Origin: an uncultured Muribaculaceae bacterium
Lineage (GTDB): Bacteria; Bacillota_I; Bacilli_A; RF39; UBA660
DNA length: 64,000 nucleotides
Assembly: GCA_964543375.1 (NCBI GenBank)
Contig: CAZIYD010000001.1
Span: 6,527-70,526, forward strand
Direction of reading: 5' to 3'
The translations under genes were made by a program, and so were the position numbers. Positions 11,296 to 39,333 of this stretch are shown in pieces (positions within the stretch are counted from its first letter, which is position 1; each line of letters opens with the position of its first letter). The notes beneath the pieces are model-generated. The model made no database searches and was not told the origin of the DNA. It saw only the letters and a program-made list of their open reading frames with translations.

Positions 11296-11377
11296 ATAAT
11301 CCCCCTGAATAAATAATACTGCACTTATTATAAGTATAAAATATAATTTGTCAATATAAAAAAGCAAAAATTGCTTT

Positions 11378-12883
11378 TTATATTTTTTTATCTAAAATTG
11401 TAAGACCGTCTAACTTTGAAAGTTCTTCTTTTGTTTTAGGAGTTATTGTAAAACCTTTACTTCCTAATTCTGCTACTAATATTTCATCATTTTCTTTTCC
11501 TACAACAAAATAGGCATGTCCAACAGAAGCACTATCACTAGGATTAAGTGGTTTTTTAAAAAATATATCTCCAGCACTTACATTAGGAATTTGTTCCTTC
11601 ATGTTGTTGCCTTGTAAGAAAGTTCCACTTAAATTTGTATTATTTTTTAATCTTAAATTTGCATTTTTCTCTCCAGTCACATCATATATTAGCATTTGTA
11701 TCCAACTTGCACTATTTGGAGCATTTTTACCTTGTTTTAAATTTGTATCTAAACCCTCCATATATAAATCATGTCTCCCAGACGAACTAAAAGGGGCTCT
11801 TAAATTATTTTCAAAGTAGAAATTAAGCGCCGAGGTCAATCCGCCCTTTACTCCTCCTGTTCTTTTTCCTTCTTCTATTGCTTCTAAGTATTGACTGTTA
11901 AGTTTTGTTTTTTCTAAATCCGATAATTGTTGATATTCTTTACTACCAACAATTAAAGCACTAGATCCATCATAGTTAGAATAATTAAGATTTGTTGCTA
12001 AACTTTGATTTTCTGCATGAGTTATTTTGGGTGTTGGTTCTATTACCGGAATATTATTTAAAGTTGTAAAACTATCTTTTGAAGTTTCTGTTGGTGATGG
12101 TGTTGGTGCTTGGGTTGGTGCTGGTGTTGGCGCTTGGGTTGGCGCTTGGGTTGGTGCTGGAGTTGGCGCTTGGGTTGGCGCTTGGGTTGGTGCTGGTGTT
12201 GGCGCTTGGGTTGGTGCTGGTGTTGGCGCTTGGGTTGGTGTTGAGGTAACATTTGGTTTAGATGTTTGTTCTGAATTTTTATCATCTAAACTAAGTTTAC
12301 CACCTCTTCCACCATACTCAAAGCCATCACTTGACAGAAAAGTATTATCAGAAATAAATTTACCACCTCTTCCGCCATATTCAAAACCACTACTTGATAG
12401 AAAGGTATTATCAGAAAGTCTAGAAAATGTTATTGATTGTATTTGTGATATTAAAGAGTCTATTTCCGCTACTAAACCATTTAATTTGTTTTTGTTAGAT
12501 TGATCTAAATCATAAGCTTGTTTTTGACGTTTATAAGTTTTTGTTTGTTCTTCTGTTGCACCTTCTCCCATTTTTTTTGGGATACTTAAATTTTTTATAC
12601 TTCCATAAACTTTATTATATTCCTCTATTTTTAATTTCAAATCCTCAATTTTTGATACCATGTTATTTAAATTTGTTTGTTCAGAAGTAATTATACTGAA
12701 TTTATTTTTTAAATCATTTATTTTTTCATCTACTACTTCTTTTACTGAACTTTCCCAATTAACATTAAAATCTAAAAAATTCAAATTTACACTCGATAGA
12801 TTTTTAGCTATATTTGTAAGTGTTTGTAAATTTGAATACTTTATTGCGTCTAAATATTTATCGTATGCTGCTTTATTATCCAT
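11378..12883 (-). CDS. T7SS-associated polymorphic protein, family 1 paralog A (501 aa)
   Basis: N-terminal ~170 aa is about 60% identical to 27793..29214 (..NWESSVKE.., IITSEQTNLNN..). Internal FLSSxGFEYGGRGGK duplicated repeat, (PTQA/PTPA)n linker, and a C-terminus with GDIFF....VGHAYFVVG (NlpC/P60-like His block, no Cys). Confidence 0.55.
   Translation of the reverse strand: MDNKAAYDKYLDAIKYSNLQTLTNIAKNLSSVNLNFLDFNVNWESSVKEVVDEKINDLKNKFSIITSEQTNLNNMVSKIEDLKLKIEEYNKVYGSIKNLSIPKKMGEGATEEQTKTYKRQKQAYDLDQSNKNKLNGLVAEIDSLISQIQSITFSRLSDNTFLSSSGFEYGGRGGKFISDNTFLSSDGFEYGGRGGKLSLDDKNSEQTSKPNVTSTPTQAPTPAPTQAPTPAPTQAPTQAPTPAPTQAPTQAPTPAPTQAPTPSPTETSKDSFTTLNNIPVIEPTPKITHAENQSLATNLNYSNYDGSSALIVGSKEYQQLSDLEKTKLNSQYLEAIEEGKRTGGVKGGLTSALNFYFENNLRAPFSSSGRHDLYMEGLDTNLKQGKNAPNSASWIQMLIYDVTGEKNANLRLKNNTNLSGTFLQGNNMKEQIPNVSAGDIFFKKPLNPSDSASVGHAYFVVGKENDEILVAELGSKGFTITPKTKEELSKLDGLTILDKKI
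12058..12285 (-). repeat. Near-perfect tandem 12/24-nt repeats encoding the (APTQ/APTP)n linker
   Basis: Repeated ggtgctggtgttggcgcttgggtt units visible directly in the sequence. Confidence 0.8.
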
Positions 12884-26336: not shown

Positions 26337-26753
26337 TTAACGTTTACTAAATTGTGGTGCTTTACGAGCTTTTTTCAATCCGTATTTCTTACGTTCTTTT
26401 TTTCTAGAATCTCTTGTTACAAAACCATTTGCTTTTAATATTCTTCTAAATGAGGTTTCACTTTTTGGATCAGTATTTTTATCATATTCTAAAAGTGCTC
26501 TTGTTATACCCAAACGAATTGCACCAGTTTGACCAGAGAAACCACCACCTTGTGCATTTACTTCTATATCAAACTTATCTCTAGTATTTGTTACATCCAA
26601 AGGTTGACACAAATCTAAAACCAAAGTTGGGAATGGTAAATATTCATTCATATCCTTACCATTTATCGTAATTTTTCCTTTTCCAGAAGTCATTCTTACT
26701 CTAGCTACTGATGATTTACGACGTCCAGTTCCTAAATATACTACATCTTTCAT
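26337..26753 (-). CDS. rpsI: 30S ribosomal protein S9
   Basis: [12 protein letters not shown]...[12 protein letters not shown]. Confidence 0.9.
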
Positions 26754-26756
26754 ATA

Positions 26757-27197
26757 TTATTCTCCTTGTTCAACTTTCAATTCTTTTGGTTGTTGTGCTT
26801 GGTGTTTATGTTCATTTCCTTCGTAAACAAATAGTTTATCTAACATTTGTCTACCAAGTCTTCCTTTAGGAAGCATTCCTCTAACCGCGATTTCTATCAT
26901 TTCTATTGGGTATCTGTCTCTCATTGTTCTAGCATTTCTAGTTCTAAGGCCTCCTGGATAACCACTGTGATTATAATATAATTTATCATCAAGTTTTTTT
27001 CCTGTTAATTCAACTTTTGAAGCATTTAAAACTATTACATTATCTCCACCATCTATATGTGGAGTATATGTTGGTTTGTTTTTACCACTTAGTATGATTG
27101 CGATTTTGCTAGCTAGTCTTCCTAAAGGAATACCACTTGCATCCACTACATACCAAGATCTTTTAACGTCTTCTTTTCTTTGCATAAAAGTTTTCAT
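26757..27197 (-). CDS. rplM: 50S ribosomal protein L13
   Basis: [11 protein letters not shown]...[10 protein letters not shown] block. ATG at 27197 preferred over TTG at 27218. Confidence 0.9.
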
Positions 27198-27316
27198 AAT
27201 ATTTTTCCCTTTCTTCAAATTAAGTTTCTTCGGAAAACTTAAAATGGGATTTAAATGTACCGAGTATGATTTTACTAAAAAAGATGATAAATGTCAACAT
27301 TAATCACCTTTTTTTA

Positions 27317-27757
27317 CTATTTTGGTTGCGCTATCTCATCGTTAGATTTAAATGCATTCAAGCTTGAAAAGTCTATTATGTCAACTTCATCATCAAGTTT
27401 TTCTTTATTGAGTACTACATGTTCTCCAAAATCTAAGGTCTCTGCAGGCTTATTTTCTAATACGACTTCGAAGTTTTCTGTTGCTTGAATAGCCTGAGTT
27501 AAGTCTATAGGTTCTTTAACAACACCTTCTATTGGTTCTACTGTAATTGTGTTTGCGTTTGTCTCAATAGGAGCAACTACAAAATTATCATAATTATTAT
27601 TCGTTATTTCTTCTGATTCTGTTTTTTTAGCATCTTCTTTTTTTGTTTTGTTTTTTCCATTTTTTGAAAGAAAACCAATTAAGACTACTATAAAGAAACC
27701 AGAAATTCCGGCTACATATAAATAATTATCTACTAAAAAATCTAAAATTTTTGTCAT
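27317..27757 (-). CDS. Membrane-anchored acidic hypothetical protein (146 aa)
   Basis: N-terminal transmembrane segment (YVAGISGFFIVVLIGFL), then an acidic Glu/Asp-rich region. Last gene of the T7SS-like gene block. Confidence 0.4.
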   Translation of the reverse strand: MTKILDFLVDNYLYVAGISGFFIVVLIGFLSKNGKNKTKKEDAKKTESEEITNNNYDNFVVAPIETNANTITVEPIEGVVKEPIDLTQAIQATENFEVVLENKPAETLDFGEHVVLNKEKLDDEVDIIDFSSLNAFKSNDEIAQPK

Positions 27758-27792
27758 ATCACACTTCCCAACATTATATTAATATTTTTAAA

Positions 27793-29214
27793 CTACTGTT
27801 TTGGATCTAATTCCACTCTGTATGTTCCTGATTCTCCTTCTGGTAAGTAAAGATTGTATACTTCATATCCGTTAGGACCATTAAAACTCGATAATGTATA
27901 TCCCATTAAGTTACCGTCGCTACTCTTTATTTCTGTTAAATTTGTTCCAACTACAGGAAATGCACCCGGGGTTTCTTTTGCGTGTATTGCTTGTGCAAAC
28001 AGAGAATATGCAACGGTTTCTCTAGACTCTTTAGAAGGTTCAGTAAAGACCTCCGATCCTTCAAATATACCAACTTGTTGCGGATTCAAAGCATAAGGAT
28101 TCAAAAGGTTGTTATTAATACTTAAATCCAGCCCATCTATTTCTGAATTTATTTTTTCTATTGTTGCTATTGTTTCAGCATCATATTTTGCGCCTATTGT
28201 TTCTGCTGTATTTTCATAATCAATATAAGATTGTGTTTGTTTAGCAATTTCATCCAAATCTGTAGTTGATCTAGTTCCGGGTTGAACAGTAGGTGGTTTT
28301 TTTGCATTAAGTTCTTGCAATTTTCTATATGCAATTAACCTTAGTTCGCCATCCATATTATTGGAATCGTTATTATTACCATTATGATTAGAGCCTTTGT
28401 ATATATCATAAAGTTTTTGATATTGGTCTACTTGCTCTAAGTTTGAGGCTTGCATTTGATAAAGACCACCTTCTTTAGTAAGCGCTATTTGTGCCAGGTT
28501 TTTTGCAAGGTCGCTATCTGAGTTTTCTATTATTGACTTTGATATTTCAATGCTTGATTCAGTGTGTTGATTACTCATTTCAAGAATTGTTAATTTATTA
28601 CTTATAGGTTTTTCTAAATTGTTGCTCCAATAAGAATTGTAGGCGTTTACATCTTTTAAAGCTAAAATTTCTTCTGCTTTAATATGTGCATTTTCATTAT
28701 TAGAAGAAGTTGAAATTGTGTCAGGTGAGGTTTCTCCAGAAGTAGTTGCCGTAGAACCAAAATTAATAGATTTTATAAAACTAATTAGTACTTCTATTTC
28801 TGAAACCAAATTATTTAATTCTGTTTTATATTGCTCGTTCTTATTATATTCTCTTACTTTATTATTATATTCAACTTTTTGTTCTTCTGTTGCGTTCTTT
28901 TGAAGCACCGGGCGAGATAAATTTCTTATATTTGAATAGACTTTATTATATGATTCTATCTTGGTCTTTAGTTCTTTCGACTTTGATACAATATTATTTA
29001 AATTAGTTTGTTCTGAAGTTATTATTGAAATTTTAATTTTTAAATCATTGATTTTTGAATCAACCGCCTCTTTTACAGAACTATCCCAATTTGCACTAAC
29101 ATCCAAATTTTGCAAATTTACACTTGATAAATTTGCAGCAAGTGTTGTAAGTAGTGTTAAATCCGATGCAATTATCGCTTCTAAATATTTATCATATATT
29201 ATCTTTTTATCCAT
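27793..29214 (-). CDS. T7SS-associated polymorphic protein, family 1 paralog B (473 aa)
   Basis: N-terminal ~170 aa homologous to 11378..12883 (NWDSSVKE, IITSEQTNLNN). Divergent C-terminus. Confidence 0.55.
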   Translation of the reverse strand: MDKKIIYDKYLEAIIASDLTLLTTLAANLSSVNLQNLDVSANWDSSVKEAVDSKINDLKIKISIITSEQTNLNNIVSKSKELKTKIESYNKVYSNIRNLSRPVLQKNATEEQKVEYNNKVREYNKNEQYKTELNNLVSEIEVLISFIKSINFGSTATTSGETSPDTISTSSNNENAHIKAEEILALKDVNAYNSYWSNNLEKPISNKLTILEMSNQHTESSIEISKSIIENSDSDLAKNLAQIALTKEGGLYQMQASNLEQVDQYQKLYDIYKGSNHNGNNNDSNNMDGELRLIAYRKLQELNAKKPPTVQPGTRSTTDLDEIAKQTQSYIDYENTAETIGAKYDAETIATIEKINSEIDGLDLSINNNLLNPYALNPQQVGIFEGSEVFTEPSKESRETVAYSLFAQAIHAKETPGAFPVVGTNLTEIKSSDGNLMGYTLSSFNGPNGYEVYNLYLPEGESGTYRVELDPKQ

Positions 29215-29222
29215 GATTACTC

Positions 29223-29531
29223 CTAAAAATCTATACTTCTTATAATTGTTTCTCCGCTGTCTTCGTTATTTTTATATATTTGCATTGAGGTTTCAATAAG
29301 CTCTGATAAGGTCAAAAGTTCTATCGCTCCGTTTTCAAGATCTTTCGCAAGATTAAATGATGAATCTTTATATAAATCATAAGAATTACTTATAGAATCC
29401 TTCCAGTCTTCACCAAGACCGGTAACTAAACTTTCCAAATTCCCCTTTTTCTCCTTAATCTTTGTAATATTTTCATTTATCACTTTTAATGCGTTTTCAA
29501 TCTCAACAAAGTTAACTATAACTGGTTTCAT
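29223..29531 (-). CDS. Small alpha-helical protein (102 aa); candidate WXG100-like/Lap-like partner of the upstream large protein
   Basis: ..LVTGLGEDWKDSISNSYDL.. hairpin-like W motif. ATGA overlap with the 1231-aa gene stop. Confidence 0.35.
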   Translation of the reverse strand: MKPVIVNFVEIENALKVINENITKIKEKKGNLESLVTGLGEDWKDSISNSYDLYKDSSFNLAKDLENGAIELLTLSELIETSMQIYKNNEDSGETIIRSIDF

Positions 29532-32500
29532 TACAACACCTCTTCTTTATTTGATAAATATAAAGTAATTAGCAACATTATTAATATTTTTAATAATAGC
29601 ATCCATGTGTTTTTCAAGTTATTGCTTTCATTTAAATAATCTTCCATAGATTTTTGTACTGGGCGTTTTAAATGAGAGTCAATATACTCAAAAATTTCTT
29701 TTAAATTTGTATTTTGTTTTATCAAATTTAACTCTTTTATAATTTTTGAATATGATTCATCTTCTAAGTTAATTAGAACTTCCAATGTATAAAGAATGTT
29801 TTTCTCTTTTATTATACTTTCGACAATAAAATTAGTTCCTTTTAAAGAAAGTAACTCTTCTATATTTAAATTATTTTTGCTTGCAAGTTCGGTTAATTTG
29901 CTATTTATTTCAAAAGATATAGAAGACTGACTTAAAAGATTGTTATAAAGCAATGATACGAGATTTGAATTTTCAAAGTTAATAGTTATAAAGTTTGAAA
30001 ATTCTTTACTATCTAAATAATCATCTGTAGATAAGTTTGTATCTCTTCCCAATATTGAAATATATTTTATGATTTTGCTTTTTAATTCTGGAATGAAGTT
30101 TTGAGAAAATCTCGATCTAATTTCGGCAATTATGTTTTGATTATTGTTTTGTAAATTAATAGAAGAAATATTATTTTGTGAGTTTTGTTTTGTTACTTTC
30201 TCATCTTCTCCTTCGCCTTTAAAATTTAAATAGATTATGTTTCCTATTAAACTATCTAAAAGTTTTCTTAATGTTTTTATACTGTTAATGTCTAATAACG
30301 AATTTAAACCCATTTTCATTTTATCTGCAGATGATGATAAATAATCTTTTAATAGATTAATTGTTATCTTATCAATTCCAAAAACACTTGGATCTTCAGT
30401 AAATAACAATTTATTTATCTCATCATTTAAAGAATCATCATCTTTTTTACTTAAAGCATATATTTTTATTACAGATGTTTTTAAATTGGTTAATGACTCT
30501 TTTATTAAATTTGTATAACTCGGAGTGGTAAGCAGTGCATCTATTGTTGTGTTTTCTGATTTTGCTAAATATGTTAGATGTTTGAATAAGAACAACAAAA
30601 ATTTATTATTTTCTTCTTTGTTTAATTTATATAAATATTGTTGTAATTTAGAAGAATCAAAATTGAGTAATAATATTAAAAGAATTACTATATTAGGGAC
30701 TTTCTCTACCAAAACATCTAAAACATCTTCTCTACTACCATTAAACAAGTCTTCTTTGTTTATATTATATCTTTTAAGAATTTTGTCAATTGCCTTATAT
30801 ATTTGATCTTCTGTTGAATTAAATAAAAGTTCTAAATACCCAGAAGTCTCAATAATCATATTGTTGTTCAAGTTTTCATTACCATAATTTGATTTATCAT
30901 CATTCAACATTTCTATTAAATTTGCAAATCCCAAAGAATAGCTGTTATTTCCATCTCCAAAATTAATAATTGAAAATATTTTCAATTTACTTTCATTATT
31001 AGAATTTGCCTCTAAATAAGAACTTAAGTTTAGTTTTTCGTTTTTTGAATTTGTCTCTAAATAAGACTTTAGTAGATTTAAATATTCTTCTGGAATTATT
31101 ATGGTTTTATTCAAAATGTTGTTTATAAAGGTAACAAAACCACCACTATATTTTATGTCCTCTTCAAATTTTTGATAAGACCTTGATAAATCAATCATTG
31201 AACTTTTTACCCATACAACATAATTTGTATTTGCTAAAAGATTTTCTATCTCTAGATTTTGTTTTTTACCAGTTTCTACTAAGGAATTAAATATTACCTT
31301 TAAAACCATAGAGTTTTTGCTCCATATGTGCTCATATTTTAAACTATAAATTTCATATAAATAAGATTGTAATACCTCATCCTTAATTGTTGAAAAAATA
31401 TTTAATACTAGTTGTAAGCTGTCTAATTTACTTAAATACATAGTAAGAACTTCGAAATTAGCACCACTTAATAAATCTTCTTCTGTTAAACTGTTTGATA
31501 TTGCAAAGTTAGAAAAATCTTCATTTACTATTATTTTAGTTATTTTAGGTTCAGTATCATAATATATTTCTTCTCTATCATTTTCTTTTTCTTTTTTGTT
31601 TTTTAAAGCACTATATAGAGGAACAATTCCAATACCTGCGATTGGCAATAAAGCAAGCCAACCTAAAGAATTATTGTTTTTTACAGTTTCCTTTATTTGT
31701 GGAGCATACTTACTATCTTGTAGTATCTCTTTTACTGTATCATCTACTATTATTGGTTTTTCTTCCACATTGTTGTCTTCTAAGTTTTCTTCTGTGGGGA
31801 TTTCTATTTCTTCTACTATTGGTTTTTCTAAAGGTTTTATTTCGTTCTTAGAATTATCAAATAAAGATGGTGTTCTTATTATCTCTTTATTTATTACAAT
31901 TGTTTTTATTATTTCTTTTATAACTGGTTTTTCAATTATTGTCGGATGTTTATTTTCTACGATTTCCTCTATATAGTCTTGAAGAGCTTCATCGTCCATG
32001 TTTTTTACTATTTCTACAACTTTACTGTCTTCTGTATTCTCTATTATATCAGTTAAAGTATCGTTTTCTTTTCCGGACAAAATATCTTCTACTGTAGTTC
32101 CTTTATCATCTAGTATTGGTTGGACCTCTTTTATTATTTCTGCAAAGGGAATATCTGTATCCTCCCCGTATAAAATTTTATTTACAAAACTCTCTAAAGC
32201 CTTTTTTGACAATTCTGCATATTTTTCATCAGTTAACATTTCTTTTAAACTTAAATTGTTTTCTTGAGAAACAACCTTTAAATAGTCTGATAACATTTCT
32301 TTAGTAACTGGATCTATATCTTTTTGTGGTTTATTTGTTCCATAAATAATGTTGTTTAGTTCAGTTTGAATATCTTTATCGTTTGTTAATGATAAATCAT
32401 TTAATATAATTAAAGAATCTTTATGTTTTATTAGAGAATCTTTTATTTCAATCGCATAGTTAGTGTCTGTTAAAAGCGCACTAAACGGTATTCCCTTGCT

Positions 32501-33226
32501 ACTGGCTAAATATTTCAAAAACAACTCAGCGTTAGGATATAGTGGCGGCTTTGCGACATAACTAGATAACTCTCTTAAATAACCTTGAAGCACGATTGCT
32601 TCCATTTGAGTAATCGTTGAAATAAGAACACTTAAATTTGGAGATTGGGCAATAATATCTGTCATTGTAGGATTAAATTTACCAGATAATAGATCTGGTA
32701 AAGTAATACCAAATTTACTTAATATGTTTTGTAAAACAACATTTAATTCCGGCAAAGTCGTATATATTGGTAATTTTCCATATCCAGATTCTAAAATTAT
32801 GTATGCCGGAATTCTAATTTGCGTTATTGTTGCTCCTCCAGTTTCACCATTTACAGAAACATTTCCTGAATTGGTAATAATTATGTTTTCTGGGGTATAA
32901 CTTGTTTTCTCTGGGTTTTTATCAAGTTGTACAGTTTCTTCGCTTGCATCTTGAATTCTAACATAACCTTCTATATCTGATAAATTAGTATGGTACTTCA
33001 TTATTCCGTCGGATAAATTATTCATAAAAGTTTTTATTTTTTCAAAATAATTAGAATAATCAGAAAAATAATTAGGAACCAGACCACTATTTATCAAACT
33101 TGAAAATGAAGAGGTCAAATTTCCATTATTATTTAAATCAGAATTAAAACTTTCAGCCTTAGTTTTTAGTCCTCCTGCATAACTTTCCACACTAGCAAAA
33201 TCAACTGTTATTTTATCTTTAGCCAT
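29531..33226 (-). CDS. Large (1231 aa) protein with an LXG-like N-terminal domain, a central transmembrane segment and a C-terminal transmembrane anchor; candidate T7SS substrate or structural protein
   Basis: N-terminal MAKDKITVDFASVESYAGGLKTKAESF...SSFSSLINSG... resembles LXG-domain N-termini. Transmembrane segments at ~aa 523-545 (LGWLALLPIAGIGIVPLYSAL) and aa ~1205-1225. Confidence 0.45.
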   Translation of the reverse strand: MAKDKITVDFASVESYAGGLKTKAESFNSDLNNNGNLTSSFSSLINSGLVPNYFSDYSNYFEKIKTFMNNLSDGIMKYHTNLSDIEGYVRIQDASEETVQLDKNPEKTSYTPENIIITNSGNVSVNGETGGATITQIRIPAYIILESGYGKLPIYTTLPELNVVLQNILSKFGITLPDLLSGKFNPTMTDIIAQSPNLSVLISTITQMEAIVLQGYLRELSSYVAKPPLYPNAELFLKYLASSKGIPFSALLTDTNYAIEIKDSLIKHKDSLIILNDLSLTNDKDIQTELNNIIYGTNKPQKDIDPVTKEMLSDYLKVVSQENNLSLKEMLTDEKYAELSKKALESFVNKILYGEDTDIPFAEIIKEVQPILDDKGTTVEDILSGKENDTLTDIIENTEDSKVVEIVKNMDDEALQDYIEEIVENKHPTIIEKPVIKEIIKTIVINKEIIRTPSLFDNSKNEIKPLEKPIVEEIEIPTEENLEDNNVEEKPIIVDDTVKEILQDSKYAPQIKETVKNNNSLGWLALLPIAGIGIVPLYSALKNKKEKENDREEIYYDTEPKITKIIVNEDFSNFAISNSLTEEDLLSGANFEVLTMYLSKLDSLQLVLNIFSTIKDEVLQSYLYEIYSLKYEHIWSKNSMVLKVIFNSLVETGKKQNLEIENLLANTNYVVWVKSSMIDLSRSYQKFEEDIKYSGGFVTFINNILNKTIIIPEEYLNLLKSYLETNSKNEKLNLSSYLEANSNNESKLKIFSIINFGDGNNSYSLGFANLIEMLNDDKSNYGNENLNNNMIIETSGYLELLFNSTEDQIYKAIDKILKRYNINKEDLFNGSREDVLDVLVEKVPNIVILLILLLNFDSSKLQQYLYKLNKEENNKFLLFLFKHLTYLAKSENTTIDALLTTPSYTNLIKESLTNLKTSVIKIYALSKKDDDSLNDEINKLLFTEDPSVFGIDKITINLLKDYLSSSADKMKMGLNSLLDINSIKTLRKLLDSLIGNIIYLNFKGEGEDEKVTKQNSQNNISSINLQNNNQNIIAEIRSRFSQNFIPELKSKIIKYISILGRDTNLSTDDYLDSKEFSNFITINFENSNLVSLLYNNLLSQSSISFEINSKLTELASKNNLNIEELLSLKGTNFIVESIIKEKNILYTLEVLINLEDESYSKIIKELNLIKQNTNLKEIFEYIDSHLKRPVQKSMEDYLNESNNLKNTWMLLLKILIMLLITLYLSNKEEVL

Positions 33227-33249
33227 TATATCACCCTTTCATAAAAACC

Positions 33250-33303
33250 ATTTCTAATTAAACAATGTTTTGTTTAATTAGAAATAGTCTCTATATAGAG
33301 ACT
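33250..33303 (-). terminator. Strong hairpin/attenuator between the esx-like genes and the downstream large gene
   Basis: Perfect 16-bp inverted repeat atttctaattaaacaa-tgtt-ttgtttaattagaaat, then the palindrome agtctctatatagagact, then a minus-strand U-run. Confidence 0.5.
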
Positions 33304-33307
33304 TATT

Positions 33308-33625
33308 TTAACTAATTCCTGTATCTGCTTTGAAGTATGCTTCTGCAACGCTATCTATATAATTTTTGTATGAATCTATAGCAGCAATTACCTTTGTTTT
33401 GCTTTCTTGCATAACCTCTGTACTTTTTTGTCTTATATTGTTAGCACTAGTACTAACAACACCTGTTGTTTGTTCTATATTTGAACTCATTCTTTCCATA
33501 GCTGTTTTTAACTCTGATTGTAATGAGTCAACTTTAGAAACTGACTGTTTTATTAACTCTGGATTAACTTCAATTTTTAAAGAAGCACCTCCACCATCAG
33601 ACATTGCAGTTGGTCTATTATCCAT
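33308..33625 (-). CDS. WXG100-like small helical protein (105 aa), no canonical WxG
   Basis: Size, helical low-complexity composition and position next to the esxA-like gene and essC. Confidence 0.4.
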   Translation of the reverse strand: MDNRPTAMSDGGGASLKIEVNPELIKQSVSKVDSLQSELKTAMERMSSNIEQTTGVVSTSANNIRQKSTEVMQESKTKVIAAIDSYKNYIDSVAEAYFKADTGIS

Positions 33626-33644
33626 TATAAAATCTCCTTTCTAA

Positions 33645-33935
33645 TTAATATGGAACATTTCTTGCATTTGTAGAACTTGCTTGCATTATGTTTTGTGATG
33701 CAGTTGCAAAAGCATTTTTTGTTTCAACTTTAATTTCTTCTGTTTTTGCAAGCATTTCTGAAGCTTTAGCTTTTAATGACTCTGATAAGCCTTTTGCTTC
33801 TGGTGCATTCAACCCGTTTTGAATCATGTTATTCGTTTCTGTTTCAATTTCAGAAACAATACGCGCTATGTTTTTTTGATCGTTTTCTATTTGAGTCATT
33901 TCACTATCAAATTTTGCTGTGTCTAAACTTAACAT
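33645..33935 (-). CDS. EsxA/WXG100-like small secreted helical protein (96 aa), WxG not conserved
   Basis: ~100 aa helix-turn-helix-like composition immediately downstream of esaB. RBS AGGAG. Confidence 0.45.
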   Translation of the reverse strand: MLSLDTAKFDSEMTQIENDQKNIARIVSEIETETNNMIQNGLNAPEAKGLSESLKAKASEMLAKTEEIKVETKNAFATASQNIMQASSTNARNVPY

Positions 33936-33953
33936 ATATGTTTCACCTCCTTA

Positions 33954-34202
33954 CTATATTAAAATTATCTCAGAACCATTTCTAATGTTTGATTCTTTTA
34001 ACGTGATGTTTAAATCATACATGTTGCCCGTTTCTCTATCATATAGGAGAGAGTCTTTTATGGGAAACGAACCATCAGATAGTTCATTTATTGATTTGGT
34101 TAATAACTTTGAAATTACACCTATTTTTTTACTTATTGGTAGAAACATTTCATATCTCTCGCCAATCTGTGGCACGAATAATATTATATAAACTTTGTTC
34201 AT
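33954..34202 (-). CDS. esaB: EsaB/YukD-like ubiquitin-fold T7SS protein
   Basis: 82 aa with the beta-grasp pattern (YIILFVP.IGERYEMFLP...SGSFPIKDSLLYD...). 4-nt overlap with essC. Confidence 0.6.
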   Translation of the reverse strand: MNKVYIILFVPQIGERYEMFLPISKKIGVISKLLTKSINELSDGSFPIKDSLLYDRETGNMYDLNITLKESNIRNGSEIILI

Positions 34203-37200
34203 AATATTTCTACCTCACTATCGTCATCATCTATTAGTTTTACAAGAGTTGGAATGCCTCTTTTGACATTGTATCCAAAACCACTTCCAATATCTTGGTA
34301 TAACTCTTTTCCGACTTTGACTAATTTTAAAGTAAATTGATCTGCAATTCCATTACCCAACCAAATTCCTTGGTTAGCATTAACTATACTCCTATACCAA
34401 TTATCGTATTCTAATTTTTTGAATTTGTCAACGTTATCTACAAAAATATACATTTGTTTTTGCATCTCTTGTGACTTTTCAAAAAATTTGTCTAACTCTT
34501 TTTGATTATCATCAGATAATCTATTTTTAAATTTTTCTATCCCTATTATTATTATAAGTTTGTTTTTATAATCTTTAAGTGCATTTTTACTATAGTTGCT
34601 TGATAAATAGGTCTCATATTGTTCGTTTACATCTTTACTTATATCCATAAAGAATTGATTAGAGTCAGCATTATAATACTTTATTTCAGATTTTTCATTT
34701 ATTTCAACGATGTCTTCGTTGTCTAATATAATCAGATCAGCATCTTTATTCTTTTTAAGTGCATATATTAAAGTATTTATAAAATTATGTGATGCTGAGA
34801 AATCTTGAGAAACTATCAATGTAGTTAGATTCTGTTTGAAATTATATGTTGAAATATCCAAACTTTCTTTTTCCACTCCTATTGGAACAGAGTTTAAATC
34901 CTCTAAATTGCTTCCAACCAAATTTAAAGTTACCCTTTCTGGTAAGATCATAACTTTTTTAGCAGAAATTTTATATTTTTCTTTTAACTCTCTGCTTATT
35001 TGTAATATGTGTTTGTTTATATCTTCTTCATCTATTATATATGAGGTTTGAAATTCATGTAATCCATTGACTTCTACTAAACCTCTTCCATATACTTTGG
35101 ATGGCAATTTGTCTTTTACCCTATCAAATATATTTGAATAATCATTATCATCGTTAAGTTGTAAAGAAACTTTTTGTCTAAAGTTTTTAGCAAGTTTATA
35201 TCTTATTGAGTTGGCAGTATTAACACTAAATATAAAAACAATACCATATTTTAATCCCTCTCTTGTAAGCTGTAATATTTCTTCTTCAAAGTTGGGATAT
35301 GTTTCTTGAAATACCTCAAAGTTGTTTATAATAACAATAATTGTAGGTATTATTTTACCACTATTTTTTATATAATATTGATAATCGCCATAGTAGTCAA
35401 CAAATAATCTTTTTCTATTATTTATTTCCTTTCTAATCATCTTAAATATATTATTAACTTTTTCTGTATCTTCTGCAAAAAGTATATCTCCAACTTGGGG
35501 GGCTTCAGAAAAAACTCTAAGAGATTCTGTACCAAAATCTAATATATATATATTAACTTCATCTACAGAGTGATTTGTAATTGTAGAGTATATTAAACTG
35601 TTTAATAACAACTCTTTCCCACTATCTGCAGAACCATATATTATGGCATTTCCCTCGTTAGATAAAGGGAGTGTCAACAATCCTTGTGCTTGATTAAATG
35701 GGTCATCATATTCTCCAATTATAGGATTAATTACACCATGCTCTGCTTTATAATTATATTTTTTCACAAGTTTATCTATAAAGATTTTATCCGCAATTCT
35801 ATCTAACCAAAGTTGTCTAACATTTATGCTTTCTTTTTTAGCTAAAGCAGATAAATATTTTACTATAGAAGATATTTGTTCACCTTCAGATAAAGTTTGA
35901 TTATTTCTTGGTTCTTCCACTTCTTTAATTATGGTTCCTGTATTATTTATAAAATCTATTGATGTATCCACTTCTTTTTTTATTTTATCCGATGGTATAT
36001 ATGCTGCCCCAGTCCAAGCTGATTGACCCAAAGAAAAATATTCATTATATCCAACTTGAAGATAATACCTTCCAACATGCTTTAAACTCGCAGCTTCTGG
36101 AGACTTTATTACATCCATACTATCTGATTTTTCTTGTACTTTTAAACATATTTCAAATCTACTATTACTCCAGATTTGATCGTTTACTATACCAGATGGT
36201 TTTTGAGTGGAAAGTATTAAGTGCACTCCCAAACTACGTCCAATACGTGCAGTACTTATAAGTTGATCCATAAATTCAGATTGTTGGGTTTTTAACTCTG
36301 CAAATTCATCAGATATAATAAGTAAATGAGGCATAGGTTCCTTTACTAATCCCTCATGATAAAGTTTTTGATATTTATATATATCAATTGTACTTTCATT
36401 TAACTCTTCTCTAACATCATTAAACATCCTTTGTCTTCTTTTTAATTCACTTTGTATAGATAATAAAGATCTATTCATTTCAACTGTATCTAAGTTTGTT
36501 ATTGAACCCGCCAGATGAGGTAGTTTTATACCAAGTTCGTTATTTTGTAGTGCTCCAACTAAAAAACCACCTTTATAGTCTATTAAGACAAACGAAACAT
36601 CATCCGGATGATAATTAACCGCTAGAGATAATATATATGAAAGTATTAATTCACTTTTTCCAGAACCTGTCATACCTGCTATTAAACCGTGAGGTCCGTG
36701 CGCTTTTTCGTGAATATCTAATACAGATATCATTCCATGACTATCTATTCCTATTGGTGTCTGAAGAGAAACTATTGAATCATTGGTCTTCCACCTATAT
36801 AAAGCATTTAGTTGTTCAACTTTTCCAACAGAAAACATTTCTAAAAAAGTATACGTTTTAGGTAAGGCATACATTTCTTTAGATAATTTTAATGGTGTAT
36901 TTGCAATAACTTTAAAACTTTGTTTCAAATTGTTTAAAGGTGCTTTATCTAAGAAGAATTCCTTTTGTTTTGTAGAAACAAGTTCACTTTCAAACACTCC
37001 ACCTTTATTACTATCTATACTTATAAATGTTGTTGTTTCGTTAGGTAAATTTGATAGCGTTTCATTAATTACTATTACACTGTAACCAATATTAATTTTT
37101 TGCTTTAATACCTTGGAGAAAAGTTGAATATTTTTTGATATCTTATAATTATTTGTAATTAAAACATAATATGGATAAAAAGATTTATAATCTTTATTCC

Positions 37201-38809
37201 CACTGTTCTCACTTTCCAAACGTTCTTGTAGTTCTTGTTCCAAATATGTAGAAAGTTCTTTCATTTCTTCATAACCTGTTGCAAAATATCTAATTGACTT
37301 ATCATCTGACCAAACGTGTGGCAAAACCTTTAGATATTCAAAATCAGATTCATAATCTGGATCCATAAAGAAAACCAATTTTAAATCTTCATAACTATGA
37401 AAAGTAACCATTTGTAAAATTATTTCTTTTAAAAATTCATTTGTTATTTGTCTTTTCCCAACTATTGCTGAATAATTCTTTTCTACAAAAGATATACTTA
37501 TTGGAACATCTTTTATTTCTTTAGATACATTTACTACCCTGTTTAATTCGTCTTTTAAGTTGTCTTCATCCATAGAAAAATGTGTTTCCGGGTATTTTAT
37601 ATCTATTTCAAGAGGAACGTTCCCTATCCCTAAACGTATAGATAGAAAATCTGGTTGTTCTATCTTTCTTTCCCATAATTGTCTGTTTTTATTCAAAATT
37701 ATTGTTTCACATGCTGGCGCTGGTAAATAGTTTTCAATTAAAATTTGCTTTTGTTTTTTTGATATTAATTCTAATTGATCCCTTCTCGAATCAATATATC
37801 CACCATATTTTTTTTGACGTTCTCTTTCGTATTCTACTTTTTTCTTTTTTTGATAATTTTTGTTTAATAGGGGCCACAATATCATGCTTAACATCATCGC
37901 AAAACCCACTATTAAAGATGGTAATACCGTTTTAAACTCAGCCTCTCCAGATAAATATCTATTTAGTGATGTGAACACAGTCATTAATGACATCATACTC
38001 ATTGTAAGCATAGGTCCAATTATATACATTAAAGGCATCTCTTCTGTTGACTGCTTTGATGGTGGAGAATCTATTATTAAAACTTCTTTTTCTATTAAAG
38101 TTTTAAATCTTGGAGATCTTGAAAAATAGTCTTCTTCTCTATATAGTTCTATACTTTCATCTTCTTCAATATAAGAATCAAAAACCTTAGGAGATTGTTT
38201 TGAAATGTTGAATAAATCTTGATTGTAAGAAACCGCGTTAAAGGGATTATTTATTAATAAACAATTTCCAATTATAATTATTTTTAAACCCATTATAAAA
38301 ATAACATCCCCATTTAATAGTTCTTGTTCTTTTATTGCCACTCCATTAATATATGTCCCAAATTTACTATCTAAATCTTTAACAACCCACTTATTATTTA
38401 AAAATAAAAGTTTAGTGTTTTTTTTACCAACAACTTGCAAATTATAAACAATTTCATTTGAGGGGCCACTACCAATATTTATCTCATTTAAATTTTTAAA
38501 ATCTAATTTTATAGTACTTTTGTCATATATAGGAGAAGAATATAAAATATATACTTCTTTTTCTTTAGTTTGTATATAGTAAAAACTGTATTCTGTTAAT
38601 ATTGCAGAATCAACTACAGTTCCATTGCTCTCTATTATTTTATTCTCTTCGTTACTTATTATTTTCCAATTTCCAGATTCTTCTATTACGTTAATTAAGT
38701 TGGTATCTTTTTTATAATTATTTTTGTCTACAATCCAATAACTACCAAAAACGTTTGATGGTAATTTTATAGTATCAATTTTATCCTTTTTTATTAATAA
38801 TAGTTGCAA
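34199..38809 (-). CDS. essC: T7SS ATPase EssC/YukB (FtsK/SpoIIIE family)
   Basis: 1536 aa. Two N-terminal FHA-like domains, two transmembrane helices, and three P-loop domains: D1 Walker A GMTGSGKSE; D2 and D3 degenerate (GSADSGKE; a degenerate Walker A-like block). Confidence 0.85.
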   Translation of the reverse strand: MQLLLIKKDKIDTIKLPSNVFGSYWIVDKNNYKKDTNLINVIEESGNWKIISNEENKIIESNGTVVDSAILTEYSFYYIQTKEKEVYILYSSPIYDKSTIKLDFKNLNEINIGSGPSNEIVYNLQVVGKKNTKLLFLNNKWVVKDLDSKFGTYINGVAIKEQELLNGDVIFIMGLKIIIIGNCLLINNPFNAVSYNQDLFNISKQSPKVFDSYIEEDESIELYREEDYFSRSPRFKTLIEKEVLIIDSPPSKQSTEEMPLMYIIGPMLTMSMMSLMTVFTSLNRYLSGEAEFKTVLPSLIVGFAMMLSMILWPLLNKNYQKKKKVEYERERQKKYGGYIDSRRDQLELISKKQKQILIENYLPAPACETIILNKNRQLWERKIEQPDFLSIRLGIGNVPLEIDIKYPETHFSMDEDNLKDELNRVVNVSKEIKDVPISISFVEKNYSAIVGKRQITNEFLKEIILQMVTFHSYEDLKLVFFMDPDYESDFEYLKVLPHVWSDDKSIRYFATGYEEMKELSTYLEQELQERLESENSGNKDYKSFYPYYVLITNNYKISKNIQLFSKVLKQKINIGYSVIVINETLSNLPNETTTFISIDSNKGGVFESELVSTKQKEFFLDKAPLNNLKQSFKVIANTPLKLSKEMYALPKTYTFLEMFSVGKVEQLNALYRWKTNDSIVSLQTPIGIDSHGMISVLDIHEKAHGPHGLIAGMTGSGKSELILSYILSLAVNYHPDDVSFVLIDYKGGFLVGALQNNELGIKLPHLAGSITNLDTVEMNRSLLSIQSELKRRQRMFNDVREELNESTIDIYKYQKLYHEGLVKEPMPHLLIISDEFAELKTQQSEFMDQLISTARIGRSLGVHLILSTQKPSGIVNDQIWSNSRFEICLKVQEKSDSMDVIKSPEAASLKHVGRYYLQVGYNEYFSLGQSAWTGAAYIPSDKIKKEVDTSIDFINNTGTIIKEVEEPRNNQTLSEGEQISSIVKYLSALAKKESINVRQLWLDRIADKIFIDKLVKKYNYKAEHGVINPIIGEYDDPFNQAQGLLTLPLSNEGNAIIYGSADSGKELLLNSLIYSTITNHSVDEVNIYILDFGTESLRVFSEAPQVGDILFAEDTEKVNNIFKMIRKEINNRKRLFVDYYGDYQYYIKNSGKIIPTIIVIINNFEVFQETYPNFEEEILQLTREGLKYGIVFIFSVNTANSIRYKLAKNFRQKVSLQLNDDNDYSNIFDRVKDKLPSKVYGRGLVEVNGLHEFQTSYIIDEEDINKHILQISRELKEKYKISAKKVMILPERVTLNLVGSNLEDLNSVPIGVEKESLDISTYNFKQNLTTLIVSQDFSASHNFINTLIYALKKNKDADLIILDNEDIVEINEKSEIKYYNADSNQFFMDISKDVNEQYETYLSSNYSKNALKDYKNKLIIIIGIEKFKNRLSDDNQKELDKFFEKSQEMQKQMYIFVDNVDKFKKLEYDNWYRSIVNANQGIWLGNGIADQFTLKLVKVGKELYQDIGSGFGYNVKRGIPTLVKLIDDDDSEVEIL

Positions 38810-38898: not shown

Positions 38899-39333
38899 TT
38901 AAAATGCCCCGTTTTTTCTAATTTCTCTTTCAATATCTCTTTTCTTTATACTTTCTCTTTTATCGTAGTCTTTTTTTCCCTTAGTGATACCAATTAATAC
39001 TTTTGCTAATCCTTTTTTGAAATAGATTTTTAATGGTATTAAAGTATATCCTTCTACATCCAATTTTGTTCTTAATTTTAATATCTCTTTTTTATTAAGC
39101 AAAAGTTTTCTGGTTCTAGTTTCTTCGTGATTAAATAAGTTTCCCTTATCATATGAGGAAATGTGAGCATTCAATAAAAAAACCTCATTATTTCTTATTA
39201 TTGCATAACTATCTTTAAGATTACACTTTCCTTCTCTTATTGATTTTATTTCAGTGCCCTTTAAAACTATACCCGCTTCATAAGTGTCTTCAATAAAATA
39301 ATCAAATTTAGCTTTTCTATTTTCTATTTCCAT
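38899..39333 (-). CDS. smpB: SsrA-binding protein
   Basis: [27 protein letters not shown]...[11 protein letters not shown] block. Confidence 0.85.

What the first reader, a model, noticed from the sequence alone, without database searches (positions are those of the whole stretch)
27317..38809. Minimal or atypical T7SSb-like locus: EssC + EsaB + two non-WXG small helical proteins + a membrane LXG-like giant protein, with no EssA/EssB/EsaA
A canonical multi-domain EssC and a YukD/EsaB protein are followed by two ~100-aa helical proteins that lack the WxG motif. Next come a hairpin attenuator, a 1231-aa protein with an LXG-like N-terminus but two transmembrane segments, a 102-aa helical partner protein, a polymorphic effector-family protein and a small membrane protein. 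Nothing resembling the EssB pseudokinase, the EsaA polytopic protein or EssA is present. smpB lies immediately upstream. Either the core machinery here is reduced to EssC/EsaB, or the 1231-aa protein substitutes for the missing membrane components.
Basis: partly seen in the sequence, partly recalled or inferred. Interest (0 to 1): 0.75.

Follow-up and report, generated by a model that had tools for sequence, protein, structure and literature searches.

The report
Stripped-down type VII secretion locus
This uncultured, small-genome gut bacterium has a protein-export system of the type VII kind with only the motor (EssC) and a small ubiquitin-like helper recognisable next to its likely cargo genes; three membrane parts thought to be standard are missing from the locus, which suggests the machine can be simpler than current models say.

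Summary
Window 27317-38809 (- strand) carries eight co-oriented genes. They are a bona fide T7SSb-type EssC, a divergent YukD/EsaB-like 82-aa protein, two W-less WXG100-like proteins (96 and 105 aa), a conserved hairpin, a 1231-aa all-helical protein with two TM segments, a 102-aa WxD hairpin protein, a 473-aa protein with a modular N-terminal helical domain, and a 146-aa single-pass membrane protein. No EssB, EsaA or EssA homologue was found in the cassette, among the window ORFs scanned, or within about 10 kb of EssC in about 30 related loci.

All related loci come from uncultured gut MAGs labelled Mycoplasmatota, Tenericutes or Bacilli. The EssC+YukD-like pair is lineage-wide (over 1000 YukD-like clusters).

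The 1231-aa protein is not a general substitute for the missing parts. It occurs only in one subclade. It belongs to a rare, unannotated family (about 49 clusters in 1.84 billion) whose other members are mostly soluble 350-650-aa proteins. Five of six sampled members sit next to EssC/YukD-like and WXG-like genes. It is most likely a T7 substrate that stays membrane-anchored.

Verdict: probably a new, reduced variant of T7SSb. Genome-wide absence of EssB, EsaA and EssA could not be tested.

The parts
34199..38809 (-). essC: T7SSb-type membrane ATPase (1536 aa). N-terminal FHA region, two TM helices (about residues 258-312), three FtsK/SpoIIIE-type ATPase domains.
   Evidence: TIGR03928 scores 996.7 bits against a cutoff of 778.4. 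Pfam finds FHA (E 1.3e-8) and FtsK_SpoIIIE (E 9.7e-40). It is 31-34% identical to annotated Listeria and Bacillus EssC. Within the subclade the D1 ATPase domain is 92-96% identical but the C-terminal domain only 63-69%. The usual FHA phosphothreonine-contact residues (R, S, H, N) are not conserved (read; these positions are from my own knowledge).
33954..34202 (-). 82-aa YukD/EsaB-like (ubiquitin-like) protein, translationally coupled to essC.
   Evidence: The start overlaps the essC stop by 4 nt. It sits next to EssC in every related locus. No Pfam hit in the window copy. Of 109 homologues, 33 hit YukD over the full length (best E 1.8e-3), 66 hit DUF2604 and 26 hit UBL_ZFAND1. Listeria EsaB is the top hit of the family HMM among the ORFs of two canonical loci, but only at E 0.067. 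Shared Y-D/E-L-x-I-P and C-terminal G-S/D-x-I-L motifs.
33645..33935 (-). 96-aa helical protein with no Trp. Candidate WXG100-like or Lap-like partner A.
   Evidence: Translation. Orthologues occupy the same position in L003-L010 at 29-81% identity. No significant family hit.
33308..33625 (-). 105-aa divergent WXG100/EsxA-like protein that lacks the WXG motif.
   Evidence: Pfam WXG100 E 1.7e-3 over profile positions 1-85 of 86. NCBIfam ESAT6_2 E 5.7e-6 and WXG100_ESAT6 E 6.3e-4, all below cutoff. Weak phmmer link to L033_15006 (E 5.4e-4), which itself matches canonical EsxA (E 1.8e-5).
33234..33303 (-). Conserved intergenic stem-loop followed by U5, immediately upstream of the RBS of the 1231-aa gene. 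Leaky terminator, RNA-processing site or operator.
   Evidence: dG -29.9 kcal/mol, z -8.3. Nearly identical sequence in L003, L004, L005, L007, L008 and L009, although the flanking proteins are only 30-40% identical. 25 predicted pairs, 2 with compensatory changes. One copy per locus. No Rfam family at threshold.
29531..33226 (-). 1231-aa all-helical repeat protein ('X family'). Probable T7 substrate that remains membrane-anchored.
   Evidence: Only 6 clusters in 5.8 billion proteins and 49 hits in 1.84 billion representatives. Conserved along its whole length. Internal ~200-aa module duplicated on both sides of TM1 (hhalign 98%). AF2 model is all-alpha with mean pLDDT 54, and no PDB fold match. 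The short-family HMM matches residues 1-220 and 237-349 (E 9e-28).
32957..33226 (-). N-terminal ~90-aa helical-hairpin (WXG100/LXG-like) domain of the 1231-aa protein. Inferred T7 targeting domain.
   Evidence: AF2 helices at 10-32, 37-45 and 53-86, at low confidence. This part of the X-family profile also weakly matches a p102 orthologue (E 1.4e-4). No PF04740 hit.
31604..31666 (-). TM segment 1 of the 1231-aa protein (residues 521-541), followed by a K-rich stretch (KNKKEK).
   Evidence: Hydropathy. Conserved in all 7 homologues, with a positive cluster on the C-terminal side.
29552..29608 (-). TM segment 2 of the 1231-aa protein (residues 1207-1225), a tail anchor with only 6 residues after it.
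29223..29531 (-). 102-aa WXG100-like protein with conserved W-x-D at the hairpin turn, coupled to the 1231-aa gene.
   Evidence: 1-nt overlap with the upstream gene. W43 is conserved in 6 orthologues. Pfam WXG100 E 0.066.
27793..29214 (-). 473-aa protein: conserved N-terminal ~153-aa long-helix domain (28756-29214), variable linker, helical middle domain, small C-terminal beta domain. Probable T7 substrate or effector.
   Evidence: AF2 pLDDT 71.6. The N-terminal domain is 59% identical to that of the 501-aa paralogue at 11378-12883, and the rest is unrelated. Family alignment. No Pfam or NCBIfam hit and no fold match.
27317..27757 (-). 146-aa single-pass membrane protein (TM residues 13-31, window 27665-27721) with a conserved acidic C-terminal motif. 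Accessory or immunity-like; role inferred only.
   Evidence: It always follows the 473-aa gene in L003, L004, L005 and L007. No similarity to EssA.
11378..12883 (-). 501-aa paralogue that shares only the N-terminal domain of the 473-aa protein. Probable second cargo, followed by a 264-aa membrane protein (10573-11367).
   Evidence: BLASTP 59% over residues 1-153, E 2e-48. HMM of the N-terminal domain gives E 3e-67.

Best explanation
This is a reduced variant of the Bacillota type VIIb secretion system. It is native to a lineage of uncultured, small-genome gut Bacilli whose MAGs are labelled Mycoplasmatota, Tenericutes or 'Mycoplasma sp. CAG'; the RF39/RFN20 assignment is my guess.

Shown:
- The locus encodes a T7SSb-type EssC and an 82-aa protein that always accompanies it.
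- It encodes small WXG100-like proteins and proteins with WXG/LXG-like N-terminal helical domains.
- It lacks EssB, EsaA and EssA, and so do about 30 related loci.

Inferred mechanism:
- EssC oligomerises through its two TM helices to form the channel and motor.
- The YukD-like protein binds the EssC FHA/DUF region and stabilises the assembly, as YukD does in B. subtilis, but without an EssB scaffold.
- The 105- and 96-aa proteins form a WXG100-like helical pair. This pair is exported and/or bundles with the N-terminal helical domain of the 1231-aa protein, in the manner of Lap proteins, to present it to the variable C-terminal ATPase domain of EssC.
- The 1231-aa protein is exported N-terminus first and stays anchored by its TM segments. 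This displays helical repeat modules at the cell surface.
- The 102-aa protein and the 473-aa protein form a second partner-cargo pair. The 473-aa N-terminal domain is a reusable targeting module.
- The 146-aa membrane protein is an accessory or protective factor.
- The conserved hairpin plus U-tract between the 105-aa and 1231-aa genes acts as a leaky terminator or processing site. This lowers expression of the giant gene relative to the machinery and small proteins.
For: - EssC membership: TIGR03928 at 996.7 bits, above the cutoff.
- The EssC + YukD-like pair is adjacent in all 24 genome-contig loci, with EssC 41-89% identical in those carrying the full-length gene (three loci matched only part of EssC, 29-44%). 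The YukD-like family has 1042 clusters.
- YukD and ubiquitin-like sub-threshold hits recur in 33, 66 and 26 of 109 members.
- T7 hallmarks in sister loci: a WXG100 above threshold, DUF4176, a 1692-aa protein with a C-terminal ADP-ribosyltransferase toxin domain, W-x-G motifs in small proteins, and canonical EsxA HMM hits at E 3e-6 to 1e-4.
- No EssB, EsaA or EssA; one search lists no such family in the extra 10 kb.
- The cassette always lies beside rplM-rpsI, so it is vertically inherited.
- EssC and the YukD-like protein evolve slowly (81-86% and 80-90% identity). The other six genes evolve faster (32-85%). The EssC C-terminal domain is the most variable region, as it is in T7SSb essC variants.
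- X family: 5 of 6 sampled members lie next to EssC/YukD-like and WXG-like genes. The N-terminal domain of p1231 is homologous to that of soluble members.
- The p473 N-terminal domain is reused in a paralogue.
- The hairpin is conserved.
- Literature: Garrett et al. 2024 (PMC11217815) describe T7SSc-j but no EssC/EsaB-only type. Oka et al. 2025 (PMC12637312) regard YukB/YukC/YukD as the conserved T7SSb core.
Against: - Absence of EssB, EsaA and EssA was shown only for the window, a further 10 kb of the contig and +/-10 kb of related loci. It was not shown for whole genomes.
- EssC keeps well-conserved FHA domains, which bind EssB in canonical systems. This implies a partner that I have not identified.
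- The YukD assignment rests on sub-threshold sequence signals and position. No structure was predicted for it.
- The window's small proteins do not reach any WXG100 threshold.
- The same helical module occurs on both sides of TM1 in p1231. That is odd if TM1 truly spans the membrane, and the flanking charges leave the topology ambiguous.
- The AF2 model of p1231 is poor (pLDDT 54), and neither model has an informative fold match.
- All data come from MAGs or metagenomes. There is no expression or secretion evidence.
Confidence: 0.6

Rival explanations
1. Ordinary T7SSb with a split locus. EssB, EsaA and EssA exist but are encoded elsewhere in the genome, so the machinery is not reduced.
For: EssC retains conserved FHA domains, which bind the EssB pseudokinase in B. 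subtilis. Only about 74 kb of one contig and +/-10 kb around related loci could be inspected.
Against: In the canonical loci fetched here (Listeria, B. mycoides) all components lie in one operon. In about 30 loci from many species of this lineage none of them is ever near EssC. The cassette is bounded by housekeeping genes. Several published T7SS variants also lack these genes.
Confidence: 0.2
2. Non-homologous replacement. The 1231-, 473- and 146-aa proteins are structural parts of the machine and take the roles of EsaA, EssB and EssA.
For: The sizes are similar: 1231 vs 1068-1217 aa, 473 vs 398-402 aa, 146 vs 170 aa. All three are conserved together in the subclade. p1231 is conserved along its whole length, has two conserved TM segments and has no toxin-like variable end. 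X-family genes sit in the core part of other loci, between the YukD-like gene and the WXG pair.
Against: The topologies differ: EsaA has 1+5 TM and EssB has a central TM, whereas p473 has none. Profile similarity is below 1%. The trio is absent from sister clades that keep EssC and the YukD-like gene. Most X-family members are soluble. p1231 and p473 start with WXG/LXG-like domains, which are typical of substrates. They evolve faster than EssC.
Confidence: 0.12
The downstream genes provide immunity, and the locus serves interbacterial killing only.
For: It has an LXG-like N-terminus, hydrophobic segments and two upstream Lap-like genes. Related loci carry clear polymorphic toxins (ADP-ribosyltransferase). 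A small membrane protein lies downstream.
Against: There is no C-terminal polymorphism; the whole protein is conserved at 50-76% identity. There are no arrays of immunity genes. Its size and repeat architecture are unlike known T7 pore toxins. p146 follows p473, not p1231.
Confidence: 0.08

Closest known systems
T7SSb (S. aureus Ess, B. subtilis Yuk, Listeria)
   Same: EssC of the Firmicutes equivalog type, with N-terminal FHA domains, 2 TM helices and 3 ATPase domains, and with a variable C-terminal domain. A small ubiquitin-like partner gene adjacent to essC. WXG100-like small proteins. Cargo with N-terminal helical targeting domains, preceded by small helical partner genes.
   Different: No EssB/YukC, EsaA/YueB or EssA/YueC in the locus. 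The local small proteins have no W-x-G motif. The gene order differs: essC comes first, whereas the two canonical loci fetched here run esxA-esaA-essA-esaB-essB-essC. The host is an uncultured reduced-genome lineage.
T7SSg and other variants T7SSc-j (Garrett, Higginson & Palmer 2024, PMC11217815)
   Same: These are precedents for T7SS that keep only TsxA (WXG100), TsxB (YukD-like) and TsxC (EssC) in common and lack EssB, EsaA and EssA. T7SSg is similarly small, with two WXG100 proteins, B, C and one further protein. Lap-like small proteins lie next to the candidate cargo.
   Different: TsgC lacks FHA domains and TsgL is a beta-propeller. T7SSd, e and j have a kinase and a large Ig-like TsxI protein. 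T7SSf has a phosphatase, an FHA protein and an AAA+ ATPase. None of these is present here. The X family is not part of any described variant. That survey was based on RefSeq.
LXG effector + Lap1/Lap2 modules of T7SSb
   Same: Two ~100-aa helical proteins encoded directly upstream of a large protein with an N-terminal helical domain. A reusable N-terminal domain fused to different C-termini (p473 and its paralogue).
   Different: No PF04740 LXG match. p1231 has no polymorphic toxin end and no obvious immunity gene, and it carries TM segments and internal repeats.
TsdI/TsdH of T7SSd/e
   Same: A very large protein with a C-terminal TM anchor, plus a small single-pass membrane protein with a short cytoplasmic tail, encoded in a T7SS locus.
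   Different: TsdI has a Sec signal peptide and Ig-like domains. p1231 has no signal peptide, is all-helical and starts with a WXG-like domain.

Membership tests
T7SSb | [quoted passage not shown] | tested here: met
   TIGR03928 scores 996.7 bits, above the 778.4 cutoff. Pfam finds FHA and FtsK_SpoIIIE.
T7SSb | EsaB/YukD ubiquitin-like protein | tested here: inconclusive
   No Pfam hit in the window protein. YukD hits in 2 of 15 and 33 of 109 relatives, all below the cutoff. hhalign to Listeria/B. mycoides EsaB gives probability below 3%. Position, size and motifs fit. No structure was predicted.
T7SSb | EsxA: WXG100 protein with a W-x-G motif | tested here: inconclusive
   p105 gives full-length but sub-threshold WXG100/ESAT-6 hits. 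There is no Trp in p96 or p105. Related loci do carry WXG100 proteins.
T7SSb | EssB/YukC pseudokinase with a central TM helix | tested here: not met
   No hit in the cassette, the window ORFs scanned or the related loci. The whole genome was not searchable.
T7SSb | EsaA/YueB polytopic protein with a long extracellular domain | tested here: not met
   p1231 against the EsaA profile gives 0.1% probability, and the TM topology differs (2 vs 6 segments). No hit in the related loci.
T7SSb | EssA/YueC small membrane protein | tested here: not met
   p146 against EssA gives 0.2% probability. There is no TIGR03927 hit.
LXG polymorphic toxins | LXG domain (PF04740) at the N-terminus | tested here: not met
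   No Pfam hit for p1231 or p473 at E <= 0.1. The only support is helical N-terminal domains in the AF2 models.
LXG polymorphic toxins | Variable C-terminal toxin domain with an adjacent immunity gene | tested here: not met
   p1231 is conserved end to end. p473 shows a partial pattern: its N-terminal domain is shared with a paralogue that has a different C-terminus, but its own C-terminal domain is conserved across loci.
WXG100 superfamily | Helical hairpin of about 100 aa | tested here: inconclusive
   The sizes are 96, 105 and 102 aa. Alignments to WXG100 are full-length for p105 but sub-threshold. p102 has W-x-D at the turn. No structure was predicted.
T7SSc-j (Garrett 2024) | Variant-specific accessory components (kinase TsxD, phosphatase TsxF, FHA protein TsxJ, TsxI, TsgL propeller, TsfV ATPase, EspG-like) | tested here: not met
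   None of these domain families was hit by any cassette protein.

The most novel reading that the evidence does not exclude
A whole lineage of abundant, uncultured, genome-reduced gut Bacilli runs a T7SSb whose membrane machine consists only of EssC and a YukD-like protein, with no EssB, EsaA or EssA anywhere in the genome. This would be the natural minimal T7SS. It exports a previously unrecognised family of helical-repeat proteins (the X family, here a 1231-aa membrane-anchored form) that builds a surface structure and does not act as a toxin.
Probability: 0.35. Interest if true: 0.8.

Novelty: new variant of a known kind. Interest (0 to 1): 0.62.

Why it matters
Current structural models treat EssC/YukB, EssB/YukC and EsaB/YukD as the conserved core of T7SSb (Oka et al. 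2025). They assign envelope-spanning roles to EsaA and EssA. If a widespread natural lineage keeps a T7SSb-type EssC, FHA domains included, together with YukD but without those partners, three things follow:
- It would define the minimal functional machine.
- It would raise the question of what the FHA domains bind when EssB is absent.
- It would offer a simpler target for reconstitution.

It would also extend the recent catalogue of T7SS variants (T7SSc-j, built from RefSeq) into MAG-only gut taxa. It adds an unannotated T7-associated protein family, and it suggests that reduced-genome gut Bacilli engage in T7-mediated interactions.

Tried and rejected
- A genome-contig scan with the 1231-aa protein found nothing.
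- A PDB sequence-profile search with the YukD-like alignment returned only chance hits.
- hhalign of that alignment against genuine EsaB sequences gave below 3% probability.
- The AF2 model of residues 1-1195 of the 1231-aa protein was poor (pLDDT 54). Foldseek against the PDB gave only generic alpha-solenoid hits with E >= 0.3.
- The afdb50 library was unavailable.
- A Pfam scan of 43 remote X-family members gave nothing consistent apart from faint GerD hits in 5.
- An Rfam scan of the hairpin gave only sub-threshold miRNA-like hits.
- Extending the contig on one side revealed a T4SS/Tad-like cluster and no listed T7 family. The other side could not be extended.
- I rejected the idea that the cassette is a recently acquired island. 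Its GC content matches the window, and it sits beside rplM-rpsI in several species.
- I rejected a decaying remnant. All eight ORFs are intact and conserved across species.
- The wall-less hypothesis (loss of EsaA/EssA because there is no cell wall) could not be assessed. The window holds no informative peptidoglycan genes, and the literature predicts mixed phenotypes for RF39, RFN20 and ML615J-28.


Full report
**What is there**

The window is about 28% G+C and almost all genes are on the - strand. Between smpB (38899-39333) and rplM-rpsI (26337-27218) lie eight tightly packed, co-oriented ORFs at exactly the coordinates given.

- The first ORF (34199-38809, 1536 aa) is an unambiguous EssC. 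It scores 996.7 bits against NCBIfam TIGR03928 (T7_EssCb_Firm, cutoff 778.4). It carries Pfam FHA and FtsK_SpoIIIE domains. It is 31-34% identical to annotated EssC of Listeria and Bacillus.
- The 82-aa ORF overlaps the essC stop by 4 nt.
- The 96- and 105-aa proteins contain no tryptophan.
- The 105-aa protein aligns over its full length to WXG100/ESAT-6 models, but below their thresholds (Pfam E 1.7e-3; NCBIfam ESAT6_2 E 5.7e-6).
- The 1231-aa protein has no family hit. It has two hydrophobic segments, at residues 521-541 and 1207-1225.
- The 102-aa protein overlaps the 1231-aa gene by 1 nt and has a conserved W-x-D at the position of the WXG turn.
- The 473-aa protein has no TM segment. The 146-aa protein has one N-terminal TM.

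**Organism and conservation**

A T-box leader and the gene content point to Bacillota. A scan of one genome per GTDB species with an EssC alignment returned 24 loci. All are from uncultured gut MAGs titled Mycoplasmatota, Tenericutes, 'Mycoplasma sp. CAG:877', Bacilli or Erysipelotrichaceae. Several 'Muribaculaceae' titles look like default labels. This is the reduced-genome Bacilli radiation, probably RF39/RFN20/ML615J-28-like. [quoted passage not shown]

EssC and the 82-aa gene are adjacent in every locus: EssC is 41-89% identical where the gene is full-length (three loci matched only part of it, 29-44%), and the 82-aa protein 36-90%. A profile of the 82-aa family finds 1042 clusters in the 5.8-billion-protein collection, some seen on hundreds of contigs. 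The pair is therefore common in gut metagenomes. The cassette always sits beside rplM-rpsI, either upstream or downstream of them. That argues for vertical inheritance and against a mobile island.

**Missing components**

I fetched two canonical T7SSb loci with annotated esxA-esaA-essA-esaB-essB-essC, from Listeria monocytogenes and Bacillus mycoides pBMX_1.

- Profile comparisons of each cassette family with the genuine EsaA, EssA and EssB all gave below 1% probability.
- HMMs of the genuine proteins found nothing at E < 0.01 among all ORFs of the window and about 30 related loci.
- Pfam scans of further window ORFs, including the other membrane proteins, and the listed Pfam families for a further 10 kb of the contig, showed none.
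- TM topologies also differ. EsaA has 1+5 segments and EssB a central one. EssA has one at each end. By contrast p1231 has segments at 521 and 1207, p473 has none, and p146 has only an N-terminal one.
- The most reduced relatives (L013, L018) have only EssC, the YukD-like gene and two proteins of about 65 aa between rpsI and an Abi_2 gene.

Whole genomes could not be searched, so a split locus remains possible.

**The 82-aa protein**

Pfam does not recognise the window copy. Among 109 homologues, 33 give full-length YukD hits (best E 1.8e-3), 66 hit DUF2604 and 26 hit a ubiquitin-like domain. Among the ORFs of the two canonical loci, Listeria EsaB is the best match of the family HMM, but only at E 0.067. 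Length, the Y-D/E-L-x-I-P strand motif and the C-terminal G-x-x-I-L strand line up with genuine EsaB. I regard the YukD assignment as likely but not demonstrated.

**The system is a working T7SS and not a relic**

- All ORFs are intact in several species.
- EssC and the YukD-like protein are the slowest-evolving genes (81-86% and 80-90% identity against L003 and L005). The other six range from 32 to 85%.
- Within EssC, the D1 ATPase domain is 92-96% identical but the C-terminal domain only 63-69%. From my own knowledge, this is the pattern of essC variants that match different cargo sets.
- Sister loci carry classical T7 accessories: a WXG100 above threshold, DUF4176, and a 1692-aa protein ending in an ADP-ribosyltransferase toxin domain.
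- Sister loci also hold small proteins with true W-x-G motifs that match the canonical EsxA HMM at E 3e-6 to 1e-4.

**The 1231-aa protein**

It has only six clusters in the word-indexed search. An exhaustive HMMER search of 1.84 billion representatives gave 49 hits.

- Long forms with the same two TM segments occur only in the subclade whose EssC is at least 77% identical (L003-L009) and in a few further metagenomic contigs (P0022, P0023, P0027, P0028).
- The remaining ~40 hits are 350-650-aa proteins without TM segments. They share an N-terminal helical domain and a ~110-aa module with the motif EELLxDxxYxxxLK.
- An HMM of these short proteins matches p1231 from residue 1 (residues 1-220 and 237-349, E 9e-28). 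Its N-terminal part weakly matches a p102 orthologue. The N-terminus is therefore WXG100/LXG-like by profile, although PF04740 itself is not hit.
- Five of six sampled family members lie in an EssC locus. The orders seen are EssC-YukD-X-WXG-WXG (L033, L035, L039) and EssC-YukD-small-small-X (L037, as in the window). On the short contig L038 X is flanked by WXG-like genes, with no EssC in view.
- Internally, p1231 contains a ~200-aa module duplicated on both sides of TM1 (hhalign 98%).
- AF2 predicts an all-helical protein that is confident only for residues ~150-355, 570-680 and 810-1000. No fold match was found.
- The protein is conserved end to end, so it is not a polymorphic toxin.

Three points make me read it as a conserved T7 substrate that became membrane-anchored in this subclade, not as a replacement for EsaA. 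It is absent from sister clades that keep EssC and YukD. Its relatives are soluble. It begins with a substrate-type domain. The K-rich stretch just after TM1 fits an N-out, middle-in topology, but this is weak evidence.

**The 473-, 102- and 146-aa proteins**

Its first 153 residues are 59% identical to the start of a 501-aa protein elsewhere in the window (11378-12883), whose remainder is unrelated. Such reuse of an N-terminal module on different C-termini is the architecture of T7/LXG-type effectors. The upstream 102-aa WxD protein would be its partner. The 146-aa membrane protein always follows it. Whether that protein acts in immunity or as an accessory factor is only inferred.

**The hairpin**

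Between the 105-aa stop and the 1231-aa start lies a GTCTCTAT/ATAGAGAC palindrome, then a long AT-rich inverted repeat, a U5 run and the RBS. The RNA fold is -29.9 kcal/mol with z = -8.3.

The element is almost invariant in L003, L004, L005, L007, L008 and L009, although the neighbouring proteins are only 30-40% identical. Two apical pairs show compensatory changes. It occurs once per locus and matches no Rfam family. A leaky terminator or an RNase III-type processing site that sets stoichiometry is the simplest reading. A DNA operator is also possible, because the sequence is more conserved than a hairpin alone would require.

**Comparison with known systems**

Garrett, Higginson and Palmer (PMC11217815) described T7SSc-j from RefSeq. 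These share only the ATPase, a WXG100 protein and usually a YukD-like protein. The simplest, T7SSg, adds a beta-propeller and has an EssC without FHA domains. None of the variant-specific components (kinase, phosphatase, FHA protein, TsxI, AAA+ ATPase, EspG-like) is present here. The X family is not in that catalogue.

Oka et al. (PMC12637312) show that YukD bridges the FHA and DUF regions of YukB and promotes YukC binding, and they call the YukB/C/D arrangement highly conserved. The present EssC is of the T7SSb equivalog type with FHA domains, yet no EssB is in sight. Full-text searches found no paper that links EssC or T7SS with Tenericutes, Mollicutes, RF39 or RFN20.

**Verdict**

The finding is real, and the locus is best described as a reduced variant of T7SSb typical of an uncultured gut lineage. 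I give about 0.6 to the composite model: an EssC+YukD-like core, WXG-like partners, and p1231 and p473 as cargo. I give about 0.2 to a split locus that hides EssB, EsaA and EssA elsewhere. I give about 0.12 to the idea that p1231, p473 and p146 are non-homologous machine parts.

Novelty: a new variant of a known kind. Interest is moderate to high for the T7SS field. It is limited by the lack of whole-genome and experimental evidence.

Noticed in passing
window 33234-33303 (- strand); also L003 9920-9990, L004 1626-1690, L005 7865-7935, L007 6545-6605, L008 ~8075-8140, L009 15415-15476: An intergenic palindrome plus long AT-rich stem-loop plus U5 is nearly invariant across species whose flanking proteins are only 30-40% identical. 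It matches no Rfam family. The sequence is conserved more strongly than a plain terminator would need, so it may be a protein- or RNase-binding site.
   Followed up: partly
window 11378-12883 (-) and 10573-11367 (-): A 501-aa paralogue shares only the first 153 aa (59% identity) with the 473-aa cassette protein. It is followed by a 264-aa membrane protein. It lies between leuS and a Tad/T4SS-like cluster and is probably another T7 cargo/partner pair.
   Followed up: partly
window 1209-10516 (-), continuing beyond the window start (L040 11923-21902): A Tad/T4SS-like cluster. In the window: an RcpC/CpaB-like protein, a T2SSE ATPase, two TadB/C-like membrane proteins, two 139-aa pilin-like proteins, DUF6568/PedC-like and TrbL_4. 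Beyond the window on the same contig: TraC-like, a VirB4-like ATPase, a 1095-aa Peptidase_M23 protein and a T4SS coupling protein. Garrett et al. noted Tad genes next to T7SSg and T7SSh. Any link here is unknown.
   Followed up: partly
window 18006-19265 (+) and 19530-20696 (+), with tRNA-Gly(tcc) at 19307-19380 between them: Two paralogous proteins (419 and 388 aa) share the N-terminus MGQILIKKESL... The first has a Peptidase_C39_2 domain just above threshold (E 2.4e-5, 25.4 bits against a cutoff of 24). A C39_2-like 300-aa gene sits directly upstream of essC in L003, and 419-450-aa proteins with helical N-termini precede essC in L008 and L009. These may be further T7 effectors.
   Followed up: no
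L013 14808-15208, L018 14835-15248 (and L012-L019 generally): In one sister clade the only genes accompanying EssC and the YukD-like gene are two proteins of just 64-69 aa. That is about half the length of a WXG100 protein. One of them weakly resembles the window's 105-aa protein (E 3.5e-5 in L019).
   Followed up: no
L004 1702-5892 (P0004, 1396 aa) versus P0014 (1180 aa): One homologue of the 1231-aa protein carries a tandem duplication of its last ~216 residues, including the C-terminal TM segment. The repeat modules are therefore still expanding.
   Followed up: no
window 25274-26206 (-): An Abi_2 (abortive-infection-like) gene is conserved next to rplM-rpsI/htrA in the window and in L004, L005, L013 and L018. 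This is an unusually stable position for a defence-type gene.
   Followed up: no
record titles of L007, L009-L011, L013, L014, L023, L027, L030: Many MAGs that carry this Bacilli-type locus are titled 'uncultured Muribaculaceae bacterium' in their public records. This looks like a default or wrong organism label.
   Followed up: no
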